A DNA stretch of 64,000 nt from Edaphobacter aggregans (GTDB taxonomy: Bacteria > Acidobacteriota > Terriglobia > Terriglobales > Acidobacteriaceae): NCBI GenBank assembly GCA_022736715.1, contig DZDJ01000002.1, positions 26,149-90,148 on the forward strand, read 5' to 3'. Below the pieces are notes generated by a model, which made no database searches, was not told where the DNA came from, and saw only the letters and a list, made by a program, of their open reading frames with translations. This document shows, in pieces, positions 9,384 to 63,883 of this stretch. The translations under genes were made by a program, and so were the position numbers. Every line of letters begins with the position of its first letter. The stretch's first letter is position 1.

Positions 9384-10025
9384 ATGGAGGAACAACTCAA
9401 ACAGGAACTAGGCAAGCAGGGAATTTTCGTTACAACGCTGCAGAGCCTTTATAACTGGGGCCGTAAAAATTCCTTATGGCCACTCAATTTCGGCCTGGCT
9501 TGTTGTGCCATAGAAATGATCGCTTCGACGATGGCGCGCTACGATCTGGCGCGGTTTGGCGCAGAAGTTTTTCGGGCCTCTCCGCGACAAGCGGACCTGA
9601 TGATCGTCGCAGGGACTATCACCAAGAAAATGGCCCCGCAGGTGGTACGCCTCTATAACCAGATGCCAGAGCCAAAATATGTTATTTCGATGGGGGCGTG
9701 TGCTATTTCCGGCGGACCTTTCAAGCAGGGATATAACGTACTCAAGGGAATTGATCGCTACATTCCGGTGGATATTTATATTCCTGGCTGCCCGCCCCGG
9801 CCAGAGGCATTGATTGATGCACTGATGGCCCTGCAGCGTAAGATCGATGCGCAGCATCTGACTGGTAAAAGTAGACCACGGCACCTGAAAGCCGATGAAC
9901 CAAGTGAATTTCCAGTGCCAAAATTTGGCGAGCACGATCTGGAGCCGCCGCAAAACCCGGCTATATGGCACCCCCCTTTAGTGCAGATCAAACTGGCAGG
10001 CAAACATGAATCTGGAAGCGATTAA
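9384..10025 (+). CDS. nuoB: NADH-quinone oxidoreductase subunit B
   Basis: [25 protein letters not shown] and IPGCPPRPE carry the N2-cluster Cys ligands. A ~60-aa C-terminal tail extends beyond the conserved core. Confidence 0.9.
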
Positions 10026-25833: not shown

Positions 25834-25951
25834 TATGGCGGTTTTCCAGTTGGTGTAGCGGGAACGTGATGCCCTGAAATGGCTTTTTTTCTCAAGAAAA
25901 AGCCATCCGGCATATTCCTGGAAACTCCACGAAAACTGGGGAACCGCTATA
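25834..25951 (+). repeat. 118-bp hairpin-forming MITE/REP-like element, copy A
   Basis: About 95% identical to 63687-63803. 18-nt terminal inverted repeats TATGGCGGTTTTCCAGTT / AACTGGGGAACCGCTATA. Central hairpin ATGGCTTTTT..GAAAAAGCCAT. Confidence 0.8.
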
Positions 25952-25957
25952 ATCCGG

Positions 25958-35737: not shown

Positions 35738-36517
35738 CTACTTCGCCGCCGCGGCTGCGGTGGTTGCAGCGGACGGCGCCGCAGAGTTCATGCTCTGCTG
35801 TGTTGTGGTCAAATCCGCCGGCGCGTTTCTGTACCAGGGGCCAACAAAAGCAACTGCGCTGGCGATGCCGATGGCCATCAGCACAACAGCCAGTGCTGTG
35901 GTCACATATCCAAAGCGCTTACGGGCCCTTGTGCCAGGCGTAATGCCCCACTTGGCGGCGAACAACCATATGCCATAGGAAAAGTGCCAGCTTACGGCAA
36001 TAATGCCGAGAATGTAGAAGGCAAACATCCACGGGTTGGAAAGCTCATGCTGCACCTTGGCAAAGGATGCTGCCGGATGGTCTGCCAGGCGGACACCGGC
36101 GAAGCGCATGGTGTAGACATGCTGTGCGATGTAGACGAAGGCGATGCCGCCAGTCCAGCGCTGTGCTGTATATAGCCAATTGCCGGCCCAAGGATAAACT
36201 ACCGTATTCGACTGGCCGCGCGACCATATATAGAGCCCGTACAGCGCATGATAGAGAATGGGCAGAAAGATAAAGGTCCACTCCAGAAAAGGCACCCAGG
36301 GCAGACTGTTGAGGAACTTAACCTGCGCTGCATAGGCAGCCGGACCTTTGATGGCCTCGGCGTTGGACAGAAAATGCTCGATCAGAAAAGCGCCGATGGG
36401 GATGATGCCGGACAGGGAATGCAGCTTGCGCAGCAGAAAGGAGTGTCCCTGGCCTGCGCGGAGTGGTTTTACGCCACGCTGACTCGTGGAGGGTGCTGGG
36501 TGGGCGGCGGTTGCCAT
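35738..36517 (-). CDS. sdhC: succinate dehydrogenase cytochrome b558 subunit (Bacillus-type, 5 TM)
   Basis: 259-aa polytopic ORF immediately upstream of sdhA/sdhB with His-containing TM helices. The sdhCAB order is typical of type-B menaquinone-dependent enzymes. Confidence 0.8.
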   Translation of the reverse strand: MATAAHPAPSTSQRGVKPLRAGQGHSFLLRKLHSLSGIIPIGAFLIEHFLSNAEAIKGPAAYAAQVKFLNSLPWVPFLEWTFIFLPILYHALYGLYIWSRGQSNTVVYPWAGNWLYTAQRWTGGIAFVYIAQHVYTMRFAGVRLADHPAASFAKVQHELSNPWMFAFYILGIIAVSWHFSYGIWLFAAKWGITPGTRARKRFGYVTTALAVVLMAIGIASAVAFVGPWYRNAPADLTTTQQSMNSAAPSAATTAAAAAK

Positions 36518-36686
36518 AGGATGCTTGCTCCTTTTGAATCAGGGCAGAGATGAAAAGGACAGAACTGAACAGGCTCAATCCGAAGAACCATTATTCCGGT
36601 TGGAAACAGTGTCAGTCAAGGATGGAAGTGCGTAATTCATTGAAAATGCTGGATTATTCATGTCGATAATCGCGCCATTGTGCGAA
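36421..36686. repeat. 266-bp direct repeat, copy 1 (sdhC codons 1-32 plus 169 bp upstream)
   Basis: Identical to 37984-38249 at a fixed offset of 1563 bp, except 36446 (T vs C, synonymous GGA/GGG in sdhC) and 36681 (T vs C). Confidence 0.9.
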
Positions 36687-36809
36687 TTATGGCACGTGAG
36701 AAACTCGAATGATTGCTCTGCATCCCCAATCAGGTCTTGGCAGAGTCTATTGAACTGGTGTGAATTTTCTGTTTTGCGGCATTATTGCAAACATCTTGAG
36801 GGTAACGGC

Positions 36810-37928
36810 TTGAATTTTGGAATAAAGCCCGTGGTTCTTGCTTTCTGCGTGCTTTGCGCGGGATGCTTGCCGGCGCAGCAGCGGGCGGCGGACAGGCAGC
36901 AGAGCGCGGCCGACAAATTGATTGCGGAAGGGCACTATCTGCGAGCGCAGCCGCTGGTACAGGAGGCGCTTGGGCGAAATCCAAAGGATGTGCATTCGCT
37001 GGCGCAGGAGTCGATTCTGCGCTGGGCCTTCTATCAGGAGAACGAGTTTCTGGCTGAGGCGCAGAAAGTGGCGGCGGCGGCTGATAATTCTGCGGAGGCG
37101 CATGCGCAGCTAGCCAATGCCCTGGGAGAAAAGCTGGCCAGCGGTTCGACGGGGATGATGGCCAGAATGAGCGCAGCCAGGGGATTTCGTAAAGAGGCCG
37201 AGCGCACGCTGGAACTGAACCCTGGCAATGCTGATGCGTTGCAGGATATGGCTGAATTCTACTGGCACGCGCCGAAATTTGTCGGAGGGGACAAGGAGAA
37301 AGCGCGGCAGATGGTGGAGCAGTTGATGCGGGTGGACTCGGTGCGCGCATACGCTTTGCGTGCTGAATTTGCGGCTGATGCTACTGACACGTCGGCTCGG
37401 AAGAGCGCAGTTGAGGCGATATGGCAACAGGCGGTGTCTGCGCGGCCAGACAGCTACCGGGCACGGACCGGGCTTGCTGAAAGCTACCTTGCGGAAGGCG
37501 GGGACAAGTTGCGGCTGGCCGAGATGGAGGCAAAGAAGGCAGTCGCGTTGAATGCGTCGCGTATCGGGGGCTATCGTCTTCTGGCCGATGTTTATGCGAC
37601 GGAGGGACGGTGGAGCGACCTGGACGCGGTCTTGAGGCAGTCCCGGTCACAGGTGCCGGATGACCTGAGCCCGATGTACGAGGCGGCCCAGTCGATCCTG
37701 GTGACGAACGCTGCGCGGCAGTTGGGGCGTGCGGAGACGTATCTGCGCGACTATTTGCAGCAGCCCACCGAGGGACAGGAGCCCACGCTTGGCGCAGCGC
37801 ACTGGCGGCTGGGACTTGTGCTGGAGAAGGAAGGTAAAAAGAGCGATGCCGTGCGCGAATTGCAGACGGCGGTGAATATGGACCCCTCACTGGATGGGGC
37901 AAAGAAGGATTTGAAGAGGCTGAGATAG
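36810..37928 (+). CDS. secreted TPR-repeat protein
   Basis: Ala/Leu/Tyr-rich TPR-like repeats (AEGHYLRAQPLVQEALGRNPKD...; LGLVLEKEGKKSDAVRELQTAVNMDP). The hydrophobic signal (PVVLAFCVLCAGCLPAQQ) has no ATG in front of it, so TTG 36810 or GTG 36831 is assumed. The ORF maximum is ATG 36660. Confidence 0.65.
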   Translation: MNFGIKPVVLAFCVLCAGCLPAQQRAADRQQSAADKLIAEGHYLRAQPLVQEALGRNPKDVHSLAQESILRWAFYQENEFLAEAQKVAAAADNSAEAHAQLANALGEKLASGSTGMMARMSAARGFRKEAERTLELNPGNADALQDMAEFYWHAPKFVGGDKEKARQMVEQLMRVDSVRAYALRAEFAADATDTSARKSAVEAIWQQAVSARPDSYRARTGLAESYLAEGGDKLRLAEMEAKKAVALNASRIGGYRLLADVYATEGRWSDLDAVLRQSRSQVPDDLSPMYEAAQSILVTNAARQLGRAETYLRDYLQQPTEGQEPTLGAAHWRLGLVLEKEGKKSDAVRELQTAVNMDPSLDGAKKDLKRLR

Positions 37929-37983: not shown

Positions 37984-38080
37984 GCAGCTTGCGCAGCAGA
38001 AAGGAGTGCCCCTGGCCTGCGCGGAGTGGTTTTACGCCACGCTGACTCGTGGAGGGTGCTGGGTGGGCGGCGGTTGCCAT
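37984..38080 (-). pseudogene. duplicated 5' fragment of sdhC (first 32 codons) fused to antisense of the TPR gene
   Basis: The minus-strand ORF 37751-38080 starts MATAAHPAPSTSQRGVKPLRAGQGHSFLLRKL, identical to the SdhC N-terminus. It then diverges into low-complexity sequence antisense to the TPR gene 3' end. Confidence 0.8.
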
Positions 38081-38249
38081 AGGATGCTTGCTCCTTTTGA
38101 ATCAGGGCAGAGATGAAAAGGACAGAACTGAACAGGCTCAATCCGAAGAACCATTATTCCGGTTGGAAACAGTGTCAGTCAAGGATGGAAGTGCGTAATT
38201 CATTGAAAATGCTGGATTATTCATGTCGATAATCGCGCCATTGCGCGAA
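37984..38249. repeat. 266-bp direct repeat, copy 2
   Basis: See copy 1. Lies between the TPR gene stop (37928) and the 3' end of the LacI gene (38385). Confidence 0.9.
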
Positions 38250-50651: not shown

Positions 50652-51335
50652 TCAGGCGATTCCCAGGGCACCCAGCCATTCCTGCGGACGATGCACCAAA
50701 ATGTCCGGCGGGGCCGCTTCCAGCGTATGCGGCGAAAGCCCAAACAGACAGCCGACGGCCCATGCCCCGGCATTGCGCGCCGTGCAGACGTCCACGTCGG
50801 AATCGCCGATCATCACCGTTTCCTCTGGTTTCACTCCCGCCTCGTGAATCAGCGTCTCCAGGCCATGTGGATCGGGCTTTTTGGTGTGGAAGCTGTTGCC
50901 GCCGTAGTTTTGGAAGAAGTAGCGGCTCAGGCCAAAGGCCTTGCATATCTCCCGCGAAGGATTCACCGGCTTATTGGTCAGTACGGCCATCGGCCGCTCG
51001 GCGGCCCGCAACGCATCCAGTGCAGGGAAGACGCCATCATAGACGGTGGTGAAGTCCAGTTTGTGAATGCGGTAGTAGTCCAGAAAAAATTGCAGCGCCT
51101 CTTCTACGAAATGCTCGTCGTCCGGATCACCCAGCGCCCGACGCACCAGCATTCCGGCGCCATCCCCAATGTAGCTGGCGATCACATGTTCCGGCAGTTC
51201 ATGGCAGCCGTAATTGCGCAGCATGACATTGATGGAGTTGCAAAGGTCAATGCGAGAATCAATCAAAGTTCCATCCAGGTCAAAGACCACCAGGCGGATG
51301 TTGGCAACAGGGATGGGCTGAAGGATCGTCGGCAT
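50652..51335 (-). CDS. HAD-IA hydrolase, phosphoglycolate phosphatase-like
   Basis: VVFDLDGTLIDS (motif I), LTNKP (motif II), MIGDSDVDVCTARNAG (motif IV). Confidence 0.8.
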   Translation of the reverse strand: MPTILQPIPVANIRLVVFDLDGTLIDSRIDLCNSINVMLRNYGCHELPEHVIASYIGDGAGMLVRRALGDPDDEHFVEEALQFFLDYYRIHKLDFTTVYDGVFPALDALRAAERPMAVLTNKPVNPSREICKAFGLSRYFFQNYGGNSFHTKKPDPHGLETLIHEAGVKPEETVMIGDSDVDVCTARNAGAWAVGCLFGLSPHTLEAAPPDILVHRPQEWLGALGIA

Positions 51336-51442
51336 AGTTCCAGTATAAGGAAGCTCTGCGTAGGCCTCTGATCTTCGGTATGAAGAGAGTCATTGTTGGT
51401 CAAGAGGCGGATTGAGTTGGTTGCAGCGTGTCTTGTGGGGTC

Positions 51443-51683
51443 GATCACCGCAGTGGTGTTGACCCGTTGATTGAATAGAGACCAATGAATAATGCCTTTC
51501 CCGGCTCATGCCCGATAAATGACGCAATATATGCTGCGCGGGTCATGGCGGTCTCAACTTTTTCACCCTGTGTCTGCTGGTATGCGTTGTACAGGTCCGG
51601 TCTTTCTGCGGCTAGCCAGGGCAGTACCTTGTTCAGGGCAGGCTCTGTTGGCCTATGCGCGCAACCCGGAACGCTTCACCCAT
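51443..51683 (-). pseudogene. frameshifted 5' fragment resembling the N-terminal domain found in a widespread GIY-YIG nuclease-family protein
   Basis: Hand translation of the minus strand gives MGEAFRVARIGQQSLP*, then after a -1/+1 shift near 51625, LNKVLPWLAAERPDLYNAYQQTQGEKVETAMTRAAYIASFIGHEPGKALFIGLYSINGSTPLR*. The pattern (R-hydrophobic-xRH.., YxxYQxxQ, ASFIG...LFIGLY) is recalled from memory and not verified. Confidence 0.4.
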
Positions 51684-51708
51684 GCCCGGCCAATGCATCC
51701 GCCCCAGC

Positions 51709-51811
51709 CCACTGCGGTCTGGATCAACCCACCAACTCCGACCACCGCGACAGAGGGAAATCTACACTAAACTCTGACGCATCCTGTCTCAAAGTCGTTG
51801 ACACGCTCCGC
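51709..51811 (+). repeat. 103-bp perfect inverted repeat, left arm
   Basis: CCACTGCGGTCTGGATCAACCCACC...GTCGTTGACACGCTCCGC is the exact reverse complement of 54086-54188, checked base by base by eye. Confidence 0.9.
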
Positions 51812-52105
51812 AGTGCCCAGTGAGGGAAGTTCCCAGCCTTCAAGTGCCGTCCCGGAACTGGCAGAGTCAATGTCGTTGCGCTCCTGGACGGCATGGCAGT
51901 TTTGGCGGAGCTTTGGTTCTGTCAACGTCAACTGATTGCCCAACGCCCGCTCTGTGCGGACAAGTCCTGAGAGCTGTGTGCCGAGCGAGAACTCGCGCAC
52001 GACTGAGAAGTGCGCTTCGCTTTTGCTCTGACCGTCGAAAAGGTCAAGCACCGCATTCACTGCGTCACGCTGGTACTCCTGATTTGGGTCGAACTGAATT
52101 TGCAT
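51767..52105 (-). pseudogene. 5' fragment (98 codons) of a type III restriction Res-like DEAD/DEAH helicase gene, truncated at the repeat
   Basis: MQIQFDPNQEYQRDAVNAVLDLFDGQ... is the characteristic N-terminus of COG3587-type Res subunits. The native sequence ends at residue ~98 (..WELPSLGT), exactly where the 103-bp repeat begins. The frame then runs 14 codons into the repeat to a stop, before any Walker A motif. Confidence 0.7.
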
Positions 52106-52122
52106 ATCGGGTCTAGTCCTGT

Positions 52123-54015
52123 TTATCCCTTCTCTGACGAAGACGGCTTCGGCCCGGGCCATATGCCTAAAGCAAATTTGAACAAGTCTGCCGATCGATC
52201 CACAATTGTCGCTTCATTCCATTTTTCCTTATCTACCAATTGCAGGTTGATGGGCAAAAGCGAGGATTTGAGAATTTCAGGCTTTTTGGTTGCCCAATCC
52301 GAGTTCGACACGGAAGAGTTCAAAGCCTGAGAGACGATGGTCATATTACCAATGGAGTGAATGAGGGAGTTGCGTCGCCTCGTCGCTATTGCTGCTGCAT
52401 CATCTGGTGCGGCATCCTCAAGTTGAGCATAGGTTAGACCTAATGCACCATTGGGAAGAGGCCAGTTCTCGATCCATCCTTGGGGCATGAGGTGCTCGAC
52501 TGTGAGCGGTGAATCAATCGAAATCGCTTCAGACTTTGTATTGAGATACTTTTCATTCAGACGACGAAATAGATGGACGAGGCGACCTGACTGCAACGCC
52601 TGATATGCACCTCCTGTATTCCATGAAGCTCTGAATGCTTCATCACGCGGCCATTCGTTTGAGTCGCCCCCGAAATCTGAGAGCGCCTGATAAATCCGGT
52701 CTGCCGATGTGCCGTCTTTTCGAAGTGTTCTCGTAAGGCCGAGGAAGACCCGGTTGTAGTTCTTTGTGGTCAGCCCACAGACTGCCCTTCGTAGTAGGTA
52801 TGACTCCAGGGCAATCGAAATTTCCTGCCAATCGGCATCTGAAAGATTTTCTTCGAGAAGGTGTAGGAGAAGTGGGTAGGCCGTGCGTATGTCAAAGTTG
52901 TCAAGGAAAGTGACCAGAGGATAGATGATGTCATCTCTTTGCGGTTCGACAATCCGGCGAAACTGGTCCCCTTGTCTGGACAGTGCCGATAGCTCCGCTT
53001 CAACCGAGGGATAAGGTGCTTTGCCGTTGATCCAATTTTTGTATTCGACGAAGAGGTGCTTAATGGGAATATCAACGGTCAACTTGCTGGCCAGAAAATG
53101 CTGGATGTAAAGATCGCTTCGAGGTCTAAGCAATCGTCCTTGTTTGACCTCATCTCGCCAGAACGGATCGTCGAACTTCCTCCAATATTTGTCATAGAGC
53201 TTCTCTTGAGGTTCGTTCGATCTGGCGGCACGCAGAAAGATGAAGTTGCGTAAGAGATCTGCCGGCAGCAAAGGTTCTCCGCGTGCATTGAGCGTCTCAA
53301 AAATTACCTGTGCGTCGTCTCCCGCCTCCAAGTCAATGACCACAACCTTGAGCAAACTCTTGAGTGCGGTAAATGACAGTTCGACACGTTCTGCCAATGG
53401 TCGCTCCGCCTCCAACGCGGCCTCCTTATCCGTGCCGATGAAGAGCTCGTCCATCTGATCCCGGAAGAACAGATAGGCCTCAACCATTCGAGGCCGTGGA
53501 TCGAAGCTGCGAGCGTACTTTCTCTTGACAAGCGGATAGCGCTTTTCAAGTTCCTTCCTCGATCCGCTTGAGATGACGTCTGTGAACTGTTGGCGGTCTG
53601 CTTGGGTCGGCCAGACTTTGAACTTCTCCACGTCGGGATCGACCATCATCCCTTTGTTGAATACGAATCCTTGTAGCTCGGATGCTACGTCAAGACACTC
53701 ATGCTCGGTGCAAAAGTCACGAAAAGCAGCTACGAAAAGCTGCAAGGTCGTCAAGCGTTGCTGACCGTCAATGACCTGTCGCTTTTCAACGTGAGTGGTC
53801 GGAGTCTGTTTTTGATCTAGGACCATAGCTCCGAGGAAATGAACCGGAGCATCTTGACGGCCCTCCATTTGGTCGATGAACTTCCGAGCGATGTCTTCCC
53901 ATAACGCTTCCCACTGGTGCTCCCTGCTCCAGACATATTGCCGTTGGAACAGCGGAACTTCCAATCGCATCTTTTTCTCGAAAATTCCAAGTAGCGTTAC
54001 CGCATCAGCTTTCAT
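52123..54015 (-). CDS. GmrSD-family type IV restriction-like protein (DUF262 + DUF1524)
   Basis: N-terminal DUF262/ParB-like motifs (LEVPLFQRQYVWSREHQWEALWEDI; VIDGQQRLTTLQLF). C-terminal DUF1524 His-Me finger (LTVEHLMPQGW...HSIGNMTIVSQALNSSVSN). ATG 54015 has an AAGGAGAG RBS; GTG 54030 is the ORF maximum. Confidence 0.85.
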   Translation of the reverse strand: MKADAVTLLGIFEKKMRLEVPLFQRQYVWSREHQWEALWEDIARKFIDQMEGRQDAPVHFLGAMVLDQKQTPTTHVEKRQVIDGQQRLTTLQLFVAAFRDFCTEHECLDVASELQGFVFNKGMMVDPDVEKFKVWPTQADRQQFTDVISSGSRKELEKRYPLVKRKYARSFDPRPRMVEAYLFFRDQMDELFIGTDKEAALEAERPLAERVELSFTALKSLLKVVVIDLEAGDDAQVIFETLNARGEPLLPADLLRNFIFLRAARSNEPQEKLYDKYWRKFDDPFWRDEVKQGRLLRPRSDLYIQHFLASKLTVDIPIKHLFVEYKNWINGKAPYPSVEAELSALSRQGDQFRRIVEPQRDDIIYPLVTFLDNFDIRTAYPLLLHLLEENLSDADWQEISIALESYLLRRAVCGLTTKNYNRVFLGLTRTLRKDGTSADRIYQALSDFGGDSNEWPRDEAFRASWNTGGAYQALQSGRLVHLFRRLNEKYLNTKSEAISIDSPLTVEHLMPQGWIENWPLPNGALGLTYAQLEDAAPDDAAAIATRRRNSLIHSIGNMTIVSQALNSSVSNSDWATKKPEILKSSLLPINLQLVDKEKWNEATIVDRSADLFKFALGIWPGPKPSSSEKG

Positions 54016-54069
54016 ATCTCTCCTTGGCACTCGTTGCTGATCGTTACAGAGTTATAGAGTGGAACTCCG

Positions 54070-54099
54070 TTTACACCGTCTCGAAGCGGAGCGTGTCAA
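54070..54099 (-). promoter_or_regulatory. sigma-70-like promoter candidate for the GmrSD gene (TTGACA-N18-TGTAAA)
   Basis: On the minus strand, TTGACA (54099-54094, inside the repeat arm), an 18-nt spacer, then TGTAAA (54075-54070, in unique DNA), about 50 nt upstream of the ATG. Sequence match only. Confidence 0.3.
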
Positions 54100-54188
54100 C
54101 GACTTTGAGACAGGATGCGTCAGAGTTTAGTGTAGATTTCCCTCTGTCGCGGTGGTCGGAGTTGGTGGGTTGATCCAGACCGCAGTGG
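54086..54188 (-). repeat. 103-bp perfect inverted repeat, right arm
   Basis: Exact reverse complement of 51709-51811. Confidence 0.9.
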
Positions 54189-54402
54189 CCAGGATGGATC
54201 ACCCTGGCCCGTGGCGGACAACTCAGCTTTCGCAGGATACTTACGCAGGCCGCGGCGCGAAGGTTCCATAAAAAATTCCGCGACTACGACTAAAGCAAGG
54301 CATCTGCCTTGGGCTGGATACCGAAGGCAACTCCTTTTGTGCCGCAGCTTTGCTCCTGCCATTAGCGTTGGCCTCCATGCCCGGCTGCTTTATGATTGCA
54401 CA

Positions 54403-55857
54403 ATGCTGGAATGGGCACTTTTCCGCGGCGTAGCCATTGCATTCCTGATCCTTGCCAACAGTTTTTTTGTGGCGGCAGAGCTGGCTCTGGTCAGCGTCCG
54501 GGAGACGCGCATTCAACAGTTGATCGCCCAGGGGCGCTCCGGCGCCAGCACCGTCCTGAAGCTGAAGCAAACACTCGACGAATTTTTGCCCGCAGTCCAG
54601 TTTGGCGTCACCCTGGCCAGCCTGGCGCTGGGCTGGATCGGCGAACCCATGGTGGCCCAGATTTTTGAAGGCTGGATGATCGACATCCCCCATGTGCATC
54701 TGTACGCGCATCTTCTGGCGATTCCGGCGGCATTTCTGCTGATTACTTATTTCACCGTGCTCCTGGGAGAACTGGTTCCCAAGGCGCTGGCGTTGCAGCG
54801 CCCGGAGCAGATTGCGCTGGCCGTGGCCGGCCCTATGGATCTTTTTATCCGGATGACCCGGCCTGCCGTGACGCTGATGAACCGCTCGGCTGGACTGGTT
54901 CTGCGCCTCTTCAATACTCCTATGCGCGGCGAAGCTGCGGCCCATTCGCCAGAAGAGCTGAAGATGATCGCCACGGCGACGCGGAAGATGGGCCTGCTGC
55001 CGGCTTTCCAGGAAGAGATCATCCACCGCGCCATTGAGCTGAACTATCTGGTGGTGCGGGAGATTATGACGCCGCGCCGCCGCATTTTTTCGTTGCCCGC
55101 GGACATGCTCATTGAGCAGGCCAGCGCCCGCATAGTGGAGGAGCAGCATTCCCGCGTGCCAGTGTATGACCCGGCGTATGGTCCGGAACATATCATCGGC
55201 ATTGTTTACTCCAAGGACATTTCACGGTTGATGCACTTTCGCATGATGACAGCGCGCAACCAGGACCCGGAGCGCCAGGTGCGGACTCCGTTCATCGATC
55301 TGCGGCTGCAGCAGGTGATGCGCGATGCTCTGGTGATGCCGGAGACCAAGCTCGTTGCAGACCTGTTGCAGGAGTTCCAGAAACGGCGGCGGCAAATGGC
55401 CATTGTTGTGGATGAGTTTGGCACCACGGTCGGTCTGGTGACGGCGGAGGACGCCCTGGAACAGATTGTTGGTGAACTGGAAGATGAGTTTGACATTGCC
55501 GCCAAGCCGGTTCTGAGCACCGCTTCCGGAGCATTGGTGCTGGATGGTAGTGTGAATCTGCGCGACCTGGAAACGCAGATGCAGTGGAAGCTGCCGCGGG
55601 ATGCCGGGGTGGATTCCCTGGCGGGATTTGTGCTTGTGCTGGCTGGGCATATCCCTGAGCCGGAAGAGAGTGTGCAATATGGCGGCCGCAGATTCACCGT
55701 GGTGGAGATGCTGGGCCATCGCATCAGCCGCATTCGCGTCGAACCTTTGGATAAGATGGATGCAGGCAGGGCCCAGGCAGAGTTGAATTTTGACGGTGCA
55801 GGCAGCAACCCCGCACCCCAGGCGAATCTGCCGGGCGGAAAGGATGTAGAGAAATAG
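54403..55857 (+). CDS. CNNM/CorC-HlyC family transporter (DUF21 + CBS pair + CorC_HlyC)
   Basis: N-terminal DUF21 membrane domain (FFVAAELALVSVR), a CBS region (VREIMTPRRRIFSL...) and a C-terminal transporter-associated domain (GRRFTVVEMLGHRISRIRVE). ATG 54403. Confidence 0.85.
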   Translation: MLEWALFRGVAIAFLILANSFFVAAELALVSVRETRIQQLIAQGRSGASTVLKLKQTLDEFLPAVQFGVTLASLALGWIGEPMVAQIFEGWMIDIPHVHLYAHLLAIPAAFLLITYFTVLLGELVPKALALQRPEQIALAVAGPMDLFIRMTRPAVTLMNRSAGLVLRLFNTPMRGEAAAHSPEELKMIATATRKMGLLPAFQEEIIHRAIELNYLVVREIMTPRRRIFSLPADMLIEQASARIVEEQHSRVPVYDPAYGPEHIIGIVYSKDISRLMHFRMMTARNQDPERQVRTPFIDLRLQQVMRDALVMPETKLVADLLQEFQKRRRQMAIVVDEFGTTVGLVTAEDALEQIVGELEDEFDIAAKPVLSTASGALVLDGSVNLRDLETQMQWKLPRDAGVDSLAGFVLVLAGHIPEPEESVQYGGRRFTVVEMLGHRISRIRVEPLDKMDAGRAQAELNFDGAGSNPAPQANLPGGKDVEK

Positions 55858-62775: not shown

Positions 62776-63129
62776 ATGGTGGAGGCGGCGGGAGTCGAAC
62801 CCGCGTCCGAAACTGAAGTCAACAGAGAGCTTTCATGCTTTGTCCTGTTCAATTTGTCTCATCATCTACGCTTGGAACGGACAAAGATGCGAAGATGACC
62901 AGCCTGATTGATCTCGTCTGACCCGCTCAGGCGGAGCAGGGAAGACCAGCCTACTGTGCGACGCTCCGTACCAGCCCATAGGCGAAGCCGGAGGGAACGG
63001 CCACTTAATTAATTAAGCAGCGAGTGCGAATTGAGGTTCGGCACTTATAGTTTTGTGAGCGATTACGGGTGTCCACACCCCGACATGCCTCTCTGCCGCA
63101 AGCAATTCCGTCGAAGCCGTGACGCCCCC
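62776..63129 (-). ncRNA. ssrA: tmRNA (transfer-messenger RNA)
   Basis: On the minus strand, 5' GGGGGCGTCACGGCTTCGACGG pairs with 3' ...GCGGGTTCGACTCCCGCCGCCTCCACCA (G3:U70 pair, T-arm, CCA). Internal tag ORF GCC GAA CCT CAA TTC GCA CTC GCT GCT TAA gives AEPQFALAA. 354 nt. Confidence 0.93.
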
Positions 63130-63686: not shown

Positions 63687-63803
63687 TATAGCGGTTTTCC
63701 AGTTGGTGTAGAGGGAACGTGATGCCCTGAAATGGCTTTTTTCTCAAGAAAAAGCCATCCTGCATATTTCTGGAAACTCCACGAAAACTGGAGAACCGCT
63801 ATA
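63687..63803 (+). repeat. 117-bp hairpin-forming MITE/REP-like element, copy B
   Basis: About 95% identical to 25834-25951 in the same orientation. Terminal inverted repeats TATAGCGGTTTTCCAGTT / AACTGGAGAACCGCTATA. Confidence 0.8.
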
Positions 63804-63883
63804 ACCAGAAAAACGAAACAAGCAAATTACAGAGAAGCTGCGGCAATGATTGGAGAAGAAAAATCCTGGCTGGCAGAAAATTT

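What the first reader, a model, noticed from the sequence alone, without database searches (positions are those of the whole stretch)
51709..54188. Perfect 103-bp inverted repeats bracket a 2.3-kb cassette carrying a GmrSD-type restriction gene
Seen: 51709-51811 is the exact reverse complement of 54086-54188 (103/103 by eye). The arms enclose 2274 bp containing the DUF262/DUF1524 (GmrSD-like) gene and the 5' stump of a Res-like helicase gene. The interior is AT-richer than the surroundings (lines 52861 and 53101 give 31/60 and 29/60 GC). Each arm has TTGACA at its inner end reading into the cassette. On the GmrSD side this is followed at 18 nt by TGTAAA, so the repeat may supply the -35 box of the GmrSD promoter in either orientation. 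No clean target-site duplication is visible: the left flank is ...CCCAGC and the right flank CCAGGA..., at best CCAG offset by one base. No recombinase or transposase is in the window. Inference: the structure is one of three things: a segment invertible by homologous recombination, the long terminal repeats of a non-autonomous mobile cassette carrying a defence gene, or the scar of an inverted duplication that destroyed the neighbouring res gene. Perfect identity argues for a recent event or ongoing gene conversion.
Basis: partly seen in the sequence, partly recalled or inferred. Interest (0 to 1): 0.7.

Follow-up and report, generated by a model that had tools for sequence, protein, structure and literature searches.

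The report
IS3 remnants flank a salvaged GmrSD gene
The two perfect inverted repeats are the leftover right-hand ends of two copies of an ordinary IS3-family insertion sequence; the copies cut a GmrSD restriction gene out of a larger defence operon, so this is a scar of mobile-element activity, not a new kind of element.

Summary
In detail: 51709-51811 is the exact reverse complement of 54086-54188, and it is the only long inverted repeat in the window.

Each arm is the last 102 bp of a 1611-bp IS3-family insertion sequence. It holds the final transposase codons plus the right terminal repeat. The IS tips point INTO the cassette. The interior is therefore target DNA trapped between two IS insertions, not cargo bounded by transposon ends.

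The interior is 99.4% identical to an internal piece of a four-gene SNF2-methyltransferase-GmrSD-Res operon on a conjugative element. Homology stops exactly at both tips. One IS cut the methyltransferase gene 16 nt before its stop. The other cut res after codon 98. GmrSD is intact, with 9 synonymous changes and 1 non-synonymous change against the donor-like copy.

Both IS bodies were later deleted. The left junction lies at an 8-10-nt microhomology.

One MAG of a near-identical strain shows the cassette flipped with extra DNA. That is either real recombination between the IS ends or misassembly; I could not tell which.

The proposed hybrid promoter is weak: "TGTAAA" spans the methyltransferase stop codon.

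Verdict: an ordinary IS-mediated scar in a variable defence hotspot of an Acidobacteriaceae genome. Low novelty.

The parts
50652..51335 (-). gph-like HAD phosphatase, the conserved left flank of the variable interval
   Evidence: Pfam HAD_2/Hydrolase. uvrB-gph-(variable gap)-corC synteny in Acidobacteriaceae.
51445..51657 (-). Internal fragment of a UzuA-like (Uzume) defence gene. It is cut at its 5' side by the IS remnant and loses homology at its 3' side.
   Evidence: PADLOC UzuA, profile positions 34-85 of 278. Homologues begin MNLNDLL..VLVLRHRP and continue past ..GSKPLT.
51650..51810 (+). Left IS3-family right-end remnant (161 nt). It holds the last ~40 codons of orfB (stop at 51768-51770) and the right terminal repeat. 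The tip is at 51810 and faces the cassette. The outer junction with the UzuA-like fragment lies at the microhomology GGCCTATG(CG).
   Evidence: 93.8% identical to positions 1452-1611 of a full-length copy. Alignment A1 with copies that have different flanks. Translation. Microhomology.
51709..51811 (+). Left arm of the exact 103-nt inverted repeat (102 nt from the IS plus 1 target base)
51811..52105 (-). 5' stump of a Type III restriction res gene: 98 codons, ATG at 52105, cut by the IS tip
   Evidence: PADLOC REase_III, profile positions 1-79 of 989. 88% nt identity to the uninterrupted res in L164 ends at 51813. 99.4% identity to L166 ends at 51808-51811.
52123..54015 (-). Intact GmrSD-type Type IV restriction gene, 630 aa
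   Evidence: Pfam GmrSD_N and GmrSD_C above cut-off. PADLOC mREase_IV matched full length, E 4.5e-92. DGQQR motif in the translation. Against L166: 9 synonymous changes, 1 stop-to-stop change and 1 non-synonymous change.
54016..54070 (-). Native 55-nt methyltransferase-GmrSD intergenic spacer with the ribosome-binding site (AGGAGA)
   Evidence: Collinear with L166 9946-10000
54071..54086 (-). Last 16 nt of the Type III-like N6/N4 methyltransferase gene, including its TAA stop.
   Evidence: L166 Mtase CDS ends at 9945, which corresponds to window 54071
54087..54188 (-). Right IS3-family right-end remnant (102 nt). It holds the last 20 codons of orfB and the right terminal repeat. The tip is at 54087 and faces the cassette.
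54403..55857 (+). corC/CNNM transporter gene, the conserved right flank
   Evidence: Pfam CNNM, CBS and CorC_HlyC. Gene call in L001/L002.

Best explanation
The arms are the surviving right ends of two copies of one IS3-family insertion sequence. The full element is 1611 bp, with orfA/orfB, an A8G frameshift-type run, and 3-bp target duplications.

The copies inserted in opposite orientation on either side of a GmrSD gene. That gene sat inside a four-gene SNF2-methyltransferase-GmrSD-Res defence operon of the type carried on a conjugative element. One insertion cut the methyltransferase gene 16 nt before its stop codon. The other cut res after codon 98. Both right tips face GmrSD.

These steps are shown:
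- the identity of the IS;
- the positions of the tips;
- homology to the intact operon stopping exactly at both tips;
- GmrSD intact and evolving under purifying selection.

These steps are inferred:
- The IS-GmrSD-IS block reached, or already lay in, the variable gph-corC defence hotspot. It may have arrived as a composite transposon that used the outer (left) IS ends.
- Most of each IS was then removed by illegitimate deletion. On the left this ran from 161 nt inside the IS to a UzuA-like gene, at an 8-10-nt microhomology. On the right it ran from 102 nt inside the IS to the corC upstream region.

What remains is immobile. Two 102-nt identical inverted sequences can still act as substrates for RecA-type inversion. 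Flipping would not change the 102 bp immediately upstream of GmrSD.
For: The repeat is exact.

The arm is an IS3-family transposase end:
- The arm encodes ...AYARNPERFTHARPMHPPQPTAVWINPPTPTTATEGNLH*.
- That peptide matches annotated IS3-family transposase C-termini on plasmids.

The full element is a typical IS3 member:
- A metagenome scan returned 63 loci that carry this end.
- About 20 of them hold full copies of about 1611 bp. All end ...GTTGACACGCTCCG next to different flanks, several with 3-bp duplications.
- The ORF has rve domains and reaches NCBIfam transpos_IS3 at 167 bits against a cut-off of 160.
- orfA, orfB and an A8G run are present.

The tips are the inner ends of the arms: window arms align to positions 1452-1611 and 1512-1611 of a full copy, and alignment A1 places the tip at 51810 / 54087.

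The cassette is a piece of a larger operon:
- L166 9928-12208 equals window 54088-51808 at 99.43%. In L166 this lies inside SNF2-Mtase-GmrSD-Res, beside TraG, TrwC, ArdC and integrase genes.
- The same gene order appears on the contigs returned for two further GmrSD variants.
- The uninterrupted res in L164 aligns up to 51813.

GmrSD is functional-looking: 9 synonymous changes, 1 stop-to-stop change and 1 non-synonymous change against L166.

The flanking genes fit a decayed defence island: PADLOC finds a res N-terminus, a UzuA-like fragment and a full-length mREase_IV.

The gph-corC gap varies from 77 bp to about 8 kb in relatives.
Against: - No full-length copy of the IS lies in the 64-kb window, so its activity in this genome is not shown.
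- The outer IS ends, and any target duplication of a composite transposon, are gone. The delivery route is therefore inference.
- Two independent deletions that each stop 100-160 nt from an IS tip is somewhat coincidental. Other solo remnants of this IS also cluster at 95-111 nt. This hints at a systematic process that I cannot name.
- The element's extreme tips are CCCTC.../...CTCCG, not the TG...CA usual for IS3 members.
- Contigs of a near-identical MAG join the three IS ends to different flanks. The true arrangement in the population is therefore not settled.
Confidence: 0.85

Rival explanations
1. The segment is a currently active invertible segment. RecA-type recombination between the 102-103-nt arms, and with other copies of the IS end, flips and reshuffles the cassette in the living population. 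This is compatible with the best explanation and adds ongoing activity to it.
For: L002 (MAG GCA_974324785.1) is 99.99% identical to the window over the 8.7 kb on the corC side. It has res-stump-arm-corC in place of GmrSD-5'-arm-corC. In the same MAG, L156 joins the left IS tip to 1178 bp of new DNA carrying an HTH gene. The three tips and three flanks form a consistent one-to-one rearrangement. The window layout can be reached from it by one inversion and one deletion between IS ends.
Against: The evidence comes from one short-read MAG only. Its left end runs into a divergent IS copy (3 SNPs in the arm, 5 more in the next 58 nt) and then stops. Metagenome contigs that cross this IS are often chimeric, sharing one flank but not the other. 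The window and L001 both show the GmrSD-5'-arm-corC junction. Two rearrangements between strains that differ by 1 SNP in 16 kb would imply a very high rate. Inversion gives no obvious switch, because both arms are identical.
Confidence: 0.35
2. The block is a decayed composite transposon. IS-(mod 3' end)-GmrSD-(res 5' end)-IS moved as a unit from the conjugative element into the gph-corC interval using the outer IS ends. It then lost both IS bodies, in the way the ISApl1-mcr-1 transposon Tn6330 decayed.
For: Only the 2274-bp IS-bounded piece of the donor-type element is present in the window, at 99.4% identity, and nothing else of it is found. The IS copies are inverted with their right ends inward, which leaves two outer left ends as required. 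Decay of flanking IS copies to 42-90-bp right-end remnants is documented for Tn6330 (PMC5821093).
Against: There are no outer ends and no target duplication: the left flank ends ...TGTT and the right flank starts CCAGG. The two flanks are not halves of one gene (tested). The left deletion also removed part of the UzuA-like gene, so the original insertion site is lost. In-situ decay of an integrated element explains the data equally well.
Confidence: 0.4
3. The arms are terminal inverted repeats of a non-autonomous mobile cassette (MITE-like or transposon-like) that carries GmrSD as cargo.
For: Long perfect inverted repeats bracket a defence gene of foreign GC content.
Against: The tips recognised in transposition are at the inner ends of the arms, not the outer ends. 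The outer ends are unequal, at 161 and 102 nt, and lie in the transposase coding sequence. There is no target duplication. None of the 63 loci that carry this IS end shows a second inverted copy.
Confidence: 0.03
4. The structure is the scar of an inverted duplication (template switching) of an arbitrary segment, or an assembly artefact.
For: Perfect identity of the arms.
Against: Both inner boundaries fall on the IS tip to within 1 nt, which an arbitrary duplication would not do. Both junctions are insertion sites in two different genes of an otherwise collinear operon. The arms are present in three other assemblies from different samples.
Confidence: 0.03

Closest known systems
IS3-family insertion sequences (IS911, IS2, IS3, IS150 type)
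   Same: The transposase has rve domains and scores above the NCBIfam transpos_IS3 cut-off. There is an orfA/orfB layout with an A-rich slippery run, 3-bp target duplications and imperfect terminal repeats. A -35-like TTGACA points outward near the right tip. In IS2 and IS911 such a box forms the junction promoter of the minicircle (PMC3299598).
   Different: The element is unnamed and seen only in Acidobacteriota-type and peat metagenome contigs. It is long for the family at 1611 bp. Its extreme tips are CCCTC.../...CTCCG, not TG...CA. In the window only the last 161 nt and 102 nt survive.
Decay of the composite transposon Tn6330 (ISApl1-mcr-1-ISApl1; Snesrud, McGann and Chandler 2018, PMC5821093)
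   Same: A gene was captured between two IS copies from a larger native context, with the insertion sites marking the capture. The IS bodies were later lost, leaving short right-end remnants and an immobilised cargo.
   Different: The IS here belongs to the IS3 family, not IS30. The copies are inverted, not direct. The cargo is a Type IV restriction gene. No intact form of the transposon has been found, so the transposon stage is inferred.
Inversions between inverted IS copies or IS remnants (general homologous recombination)
   Same: Two identical inverted sequences of about 100 bp are a sufficient RecA substrate. One related assembly shows the opposite orientation.
   Different: There is no evidence of a regulated switch, and no site-specific recombinase among the genes called within about 10 kb. 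The polymorphism itself is unproven.
GmrSD / DUF262-DUF1524 genes embedded in restriction-modification operons (for example RloF between hsdS and hsdR; Machnicka et al. 2015, PMC4619093)
   Same: The native context of this GmrSD is inside an R-M operon, between the methyltransferase and Res. A plasmid homologue sits after hsdM-hsdS.
   Different: Here the host operon is Type III-like with an extra SNF2 helicase. In the window the partner genes have been removed, leaving GmrSD alone.

Membership tests
IS3 family insertion sequence (the arms as remnants) | DDE (rve) transposase matching the family model | tested here: met
   A full-length relative (L096) has Pfam rve and rve_3 and scores 167.1 bits on NCBIfam NF033516 transpos_IS3, against a cut-off of 160. 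The window arms are 94-96% identical to its last 160 and 100 nt.
IS3 family insertion sequence (the arms as remnants) | Two overlapping frames, orfA and orfB, with a -1 frameshift signal | tested here: met
   orfA spans nt 76-570. The orfB frame is open from nt 243 to 1571. An A8G run lies at nt 503 in the overlap. Frameshifting itself was not tested.
IS3 family insertion sequence (the arms as remnants) | Short (3-4 bp) target-site duplications | tested here: met
   TTC, TTT, TGG, CTC, TTC and CTTG flank full copies L099, L101, L103, L127, L126 and L130. This cannot be tested for the window copies, because their left ends are lost.
IS3 family insertion sequence (the arms as remnants) | Terminal inverted repeats ending 5'-TG...CA-3' | tested here: not met
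   The conserved tips are 5'-CCCTCTGTGCC...GACACGCTCCG-3'. The TG/CA-like core lies 5-7 nt inside the tips.
Composite transposon | Two complete IS copies with usable outer ends, and a target duplication flanking the whole unit | tested here: not met
   Only 161 nt and 102 nt of the inner (right) ends remain. The flanks TGTT / CCAGG share no duplication. The flanks are not halves of one gene.
Site-specific invertible switch (inverton/shufflon) | Short inverted repeats recognised by a nearby serine or tyrosine recombinase | tested here: not met
   The arms are IS ends. Genes called within about 10 kb on either side are CorC, ABC permeases, sugar enzymes, gph, UvrB and AddAB-type nucleases, with no recombinase among them. 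The rest of the window was not scanned protein by protein.
GmrSD Type IV restriction endonuclease (the cargo) | N-terminal DUF262/ParB-like domain with the DGQQR motif, plus a C-terminal DUF1524 His-Me nuclease domain | tested here: met
   Pfam GmrSD_N scores 130.9 bits and GmrSD_C 93.1 bits, both above cut-off. PADLOC mREase_IV aligns residues 1-620 to profile positions 1-626 of 629. VIDGQQRLTTL is in the translation. Enzyme activity is not testable here.
Type III restriction Res subunit (the stump) | Helicase domain plus endonuclease domain, about 990 aa | tested here: not met
   Only profile positions 1-79 of 989 are present. The intact orthologue is 996 aa and has ResIII and RE_endonuc domains. 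The window copy is a pseudogene fragment.

The most novel reading that the evidence does not exclude
The alternative joins in the near-identical MAG are real. Under this reading, 100-160-bp IS-end scars at the gph-corC hotspot act as portable recombination sites. They invert, delete and re-insert defence modules (GmrSD cassette, HTH-gene block, Uzume remnant) within an almost clonal Acidobacteriaceae population. The recurrent ~100-nt right-end remnants of this IS would then be produced by a specific transposase-linked process and not by random decay.
Probability: 0.25. Interest if true: 0.45.

Novelty: new member of a known kind. Interest (0 to 1): 0.22.

Why it matters
The result explains a striking repeat as ordinary IS biology, so it need not be followed up as a new mobile element or switch.

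There is modest positive value in three things:
- It documents, base by base, how a Type IV restriction gene was cut out of a Type III-like R-M operon on a conjugative element, then kept alone under purifying selection in a chromosomal defence hotspot of an Acidobacteriaceae genome.
- It defines a previously undescribed 1.6-kb IS3-family element that is common in peat and bog metagenomes.
- It flags a locus where short-read assemblies disagree.

Tried and rejected
1. **Arm against PLSDB plasmids.** blastn of the arm found nothing.

2. **Exact 59-nt arm pattern in metagenome contigs.** No hits, although JGI contigs carrying the arm exist. That collection evidently lacks them. The second scan, with a 24-nt conserved core, worked.

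3. **Flanks as two halves of one UzuA-like gene.** The idea was that the 2.5-kb unit is a clean insertion into that gene.
   - The reading frames fit, and the length fits the PADLOC profile offset.
   - The joined protein scores no better than the fragment alone.
   - 15 homologues start MNLNDLL..VLVLRHRP, which is unlike the right-flank peptide.
   - Rejected.

4. **Hybrid promoter TTGACA-18-TGTAAA.**
   - The consensus scan does not call it.
   - TGTAAA spans the methyltransferase stop codon and is present in the intact operon.
   - A junction-type promoter across the IS ends is not obvious either.

5. **RNA structure or known RNA family in the arms.** Fold z-scores are -1.0 and -0.25. Rfam gives nothing relevant.

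6. **Rest of the IS or other donor DNA in the window.** Neither was found.

7. **Relatives' gph-corC intervals.** None contains GmrSD or this IS. The best corC identity is 69%, so no close species representative was available.

8. **The 'NEW' DNA of the MAG.** It was not found in any other fetched locus.
Full report
**Observation**

The repeat is real. 51709-51811 is the exact reverse complement of 54086-54188 (103/103). Identity falls to chance level beyond that: 108 nt at 98%. It is the only inverted repeat of 35 nt or more in the window, and chance would give about 15 nt. The arms enclose 2274 bp. The interior is 50-51% GC against 55-62% outside. The same arms occur in three other assemblies from different samples (L001, L002, L003).

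**What the arms are**

Read on the + strand, the left arm ends an open frame...AYARNPERFTHARPMHPPQPTAVWINPPTPTTATEGNLH*, with its stop at 51768-51770.

- This peptide matches short 'putative transposase' ORFs in metagenomes.
- At 45-58% identity it matches the C-termini of annotated IS3-family transposases on plasmids.
- Copies of the same end joined to unrelated flanks (L005, L008, L009, L011, L012) all diverge immediately after ...GTCGTTGACACGCTCCG (alignment A1).

A metagenome scan with a 24-nt conserved core returned 63 loci. About 20 of them hold a full element of about 1611 bp. The element has these features:

- It always ends 5'-CCCTCTGTGCCAAC...GTTGACACGCTCCG-3'.
- It has imperfect terminal repeats.
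- Several copies carry 3-bp target duplications.
- It has an orfA (nt 76-570), an overlapping orfB frame running to nt 1571, and an A8G run in the overlap.
- The orfB product has rve domains.
- The orfB product passes the NCBIfam transpos_IS3 cut-off, 167 bits against 160.

The window arms align to positions 1452-1611 (left, 161 nt) and 1512-1611 (right) of this element. The arms are therefore right-end remnants of two copies of an IS3-family IS. Their transposition tips are the INNER ends, at 51810 and 54087. The IS bodies would have extended outward. The cassette is DNA outside both IS copies, not transposon cargo.

**What the cassette is**

Three features lie inside:

- The 630-aa ORF at 52123-54015(-) is a complete GmrSD. 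Pfam GmrSD_N and GmrSD_C both pass, and PADLOC mREase_IV matches end to end.
- Downstream, starting at the ATG at 52105, are 98 codons. They match positions 1-79 of the 989-position Type III Res profile.
- A related contig (L164) carries the uninterrupted res, and its 88% nucleotide match stops at window 51813.

The decisive comparison came from members of the GmrSD 90% cluster. L166 is a 50-kb contig with TraG, TrwC, ArdC and integrase genes. It carries SNF2 helicase - N6/N4 methyltransferase - GmrSD - Res (996 aa). L166 9928-12208 equals window 54088-51808 at 99.43%. Homology stops at both IS tips. The right tip sits 16 nt before the methyltransferase stop codon. The left tip sits after res codon 98.

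The base next to each tip (51811 and 54086) comes from the target. The IS-derived identity is therefore 102 nt, and the 103rd match is fortuitous.

The same four-gene order is found on the contigs returned for two further GmrSD variants. Of the 11 substitutions inside GmrSD relative to L166, 9 are synonymous, 1 is a stop-to-stop change and 1 is non-synonymous. The gene has therefore stayed under purifying selection.

**Surroundings**

- The left IS remnant is fused to an internal fragment of a UzuA-like (Uzume) gene. The join is at the sequence GGCCTATG(CG), which is shared by the gene (..HRP..) and the IS. This is a microhomology typical of illegitimate deletion.
- The right remnant is fused at 54188/54189 to the corC upstream region.
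- The host is an Acidobacteriaceae bacterium.
- In relatives, uvrB-gph-...-corC-oppB is conserved, but the gph-corC gap ranges from 77 bp to about 8 kb. The interval is a variable hotspot.
- No other part of the donor-type element or of the IS is in the window.

**Mechanism**

Shown: two IS insertions, in opposite orientation, flank GmrSD and destroy its methyltransferase and Res partners. Both IS bodies have since been lost.

Inferred: the IS-GmrSD-IS block either transposed into the hotspot as a composite transposon using its outer left ends, or it is what remains of a larger element that decayed in place. The first route resembles the documented birth and decay of ISApl1-mcr-1-ISApl1, in which 42-90-bp right-end remnants survive (PMC5821093). 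I cannot separate the two routes, because the outer ends are gone.

**Is it invertible?**

In MAG GCA_974324785.1, contig L002 has the cassette flipped relative to corC. L002 is 99.99% identical to the window over the 8.7 kb on the corC side. Its other side runs into a longer, slightly divergent IS copy and then ends.

Contig L156 of the same MAG is 100% identical to the window from 44652 to the left IS tip. There the tip joins 1178 bp of DNA that is absent from the window and encodes an HTH protein.

The three tips and three flanks form a self-consistent arrangement. The window layout follows from it by one inversion and one deletion between IS ends.

Against this:

- It is a single MAG.
- Contigs that cross this IS are demonstrably prone to chimerism, with shared right flanks but different left flanks.
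- The window and L001 agree on the GmrSD-5'-arm-corC junction.
- Two rearrangements between strains that differ by 1 SNP in 16 kb would be remarkable.

I put real polymorphism at about 0.35. Even if it is real, flipping leaves the 102 bp upstream of GmrSD unchanged, so it would not act as a switch.

**Promoter idea**

TTGACA lies 7 nt from the tip and belongs to the IS right terminal repeat. In IS2 and IS911 the abutted ends form a junction promoter (PMC3299598).

The proposed -10 box, TGTAAA, spans the GTG-TAA end of the methyltransferase gene and is present unchanged in the intact operon. The consensus scan does not call the pair. A fortuitous hybrid promoter is possible but unsupported.

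The one substitution in the 5' region (54053) turns TATGAC into TATAAC. It has no matching -35 box.

**Rejected ideas**

- The arms as terminal repeats of a mobile cassette: the tips face the wrong way, the outer ends are unequal, and there is no duplication.
- An inverted duplication: both inner ends coincide with the IS tip.
- The two flanks as halves of one gene.
- A structured RNA.

**Verdict**

The arms are IS3-family right-end scars. They bracket a GmrSD gene salvaged from a methyltransferase-GmrSD-Res operon, inside a decayed defence hotspot. Novelty is limited to an unnamed IS and a tidy example of gene capture. The only open point is whether the scars still recombine.

Noticed in passing
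L116/L152, L120/L136, L125, window 54087-54188 (also L111, L121, L097, L114): Solo right-end remnants of this IS in four independent loci are cut 95-111 nt from the tip. Other remnants are about 70, 161, about 200, 284, 342 and 890 nt long. The cluster could reflect a hotspot or a transposase-linked truncation, or simply that short scars persist.
   Followed up: partly
window 25834-25952 and 63687-63804: An internally palindromic repeat of about 120 bp occurs in two copies that are 96% alike. The second lies about 560 bp from the tmRNA gene (62777-63129, minus strand). It is also present at the end of contig L001. It looks like a MITE/REP-type element.
   Followed up: no
window 36421-36686 and 37984-38249: A 266-bp direct repeat (99% identity) duplicates the 5' end and upstream region of a membrane-protein gene (MATAAHPAPSTSQRG...). 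It lies on either side of a 422-aa ORF at 36660-37928, and looks like an insertion with a long duplication.
   Followed up: partly
window 51336-54402; L013-L092: The gph-corC interval is a variable hotspot in Acidobacteriaceae. The gap is 77 bp in L016, about 1.2 kb in L014, and 5-8 kb in L026, L028, L030 and L036. None of these carries this GmrSD or this IS.
   Followed up: partly
window 51416-51448; L159, L160: Two contigs from other samples stop at 51448 and 51416. This is just where the UzuA-like fragment loses homology to its family (stop at 51445-51447). It suggests a further strain-variable junction left of the IS remnant.
   Followed up: no
L166 5133-14901; L168, L175: A conserved four-gene operon runs SNF2 helicase - N6/N4 methyltransferase - GmrSD - Res (ResIII + RE_endonuc). 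In L166 it sits next to TraG, TrwC, ArdC and integrase genes. A Type IV enzyme is embedded in a Type III-like R-M system. I did not check whether this combination has been described as a system.
   Followed up: partly
L156 1-1178 (MAG GCA_974324785.1 contig 36): DNA absent from the window abuts the left IS tip in a near-identical strain. It encodes an HTH_3/XRE-type protein of at least 282 aa, with weak PADLOC hits to 'control protein' and RmrA.
   Followed up: partly
L098/L115/L134 and L105/L126/L154: Full-length IS copies in different metagenome contigs share one flank but not the other. This is either assembly chimerism across the 1.6-kb repeat or recombination between IS copies. It limits how far such contigs can be trusted for linkage.
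   Followed up: no
window 54053: This is the only substitution in the GmrSD 5' region relative to the donor-like operon. It changes TATGAC to TATAAC, 33 nt upstream of the ATG. It could be a promoter-improving change after the upstream operon was lost. No matching -35 box was found.
   Followed up: partly
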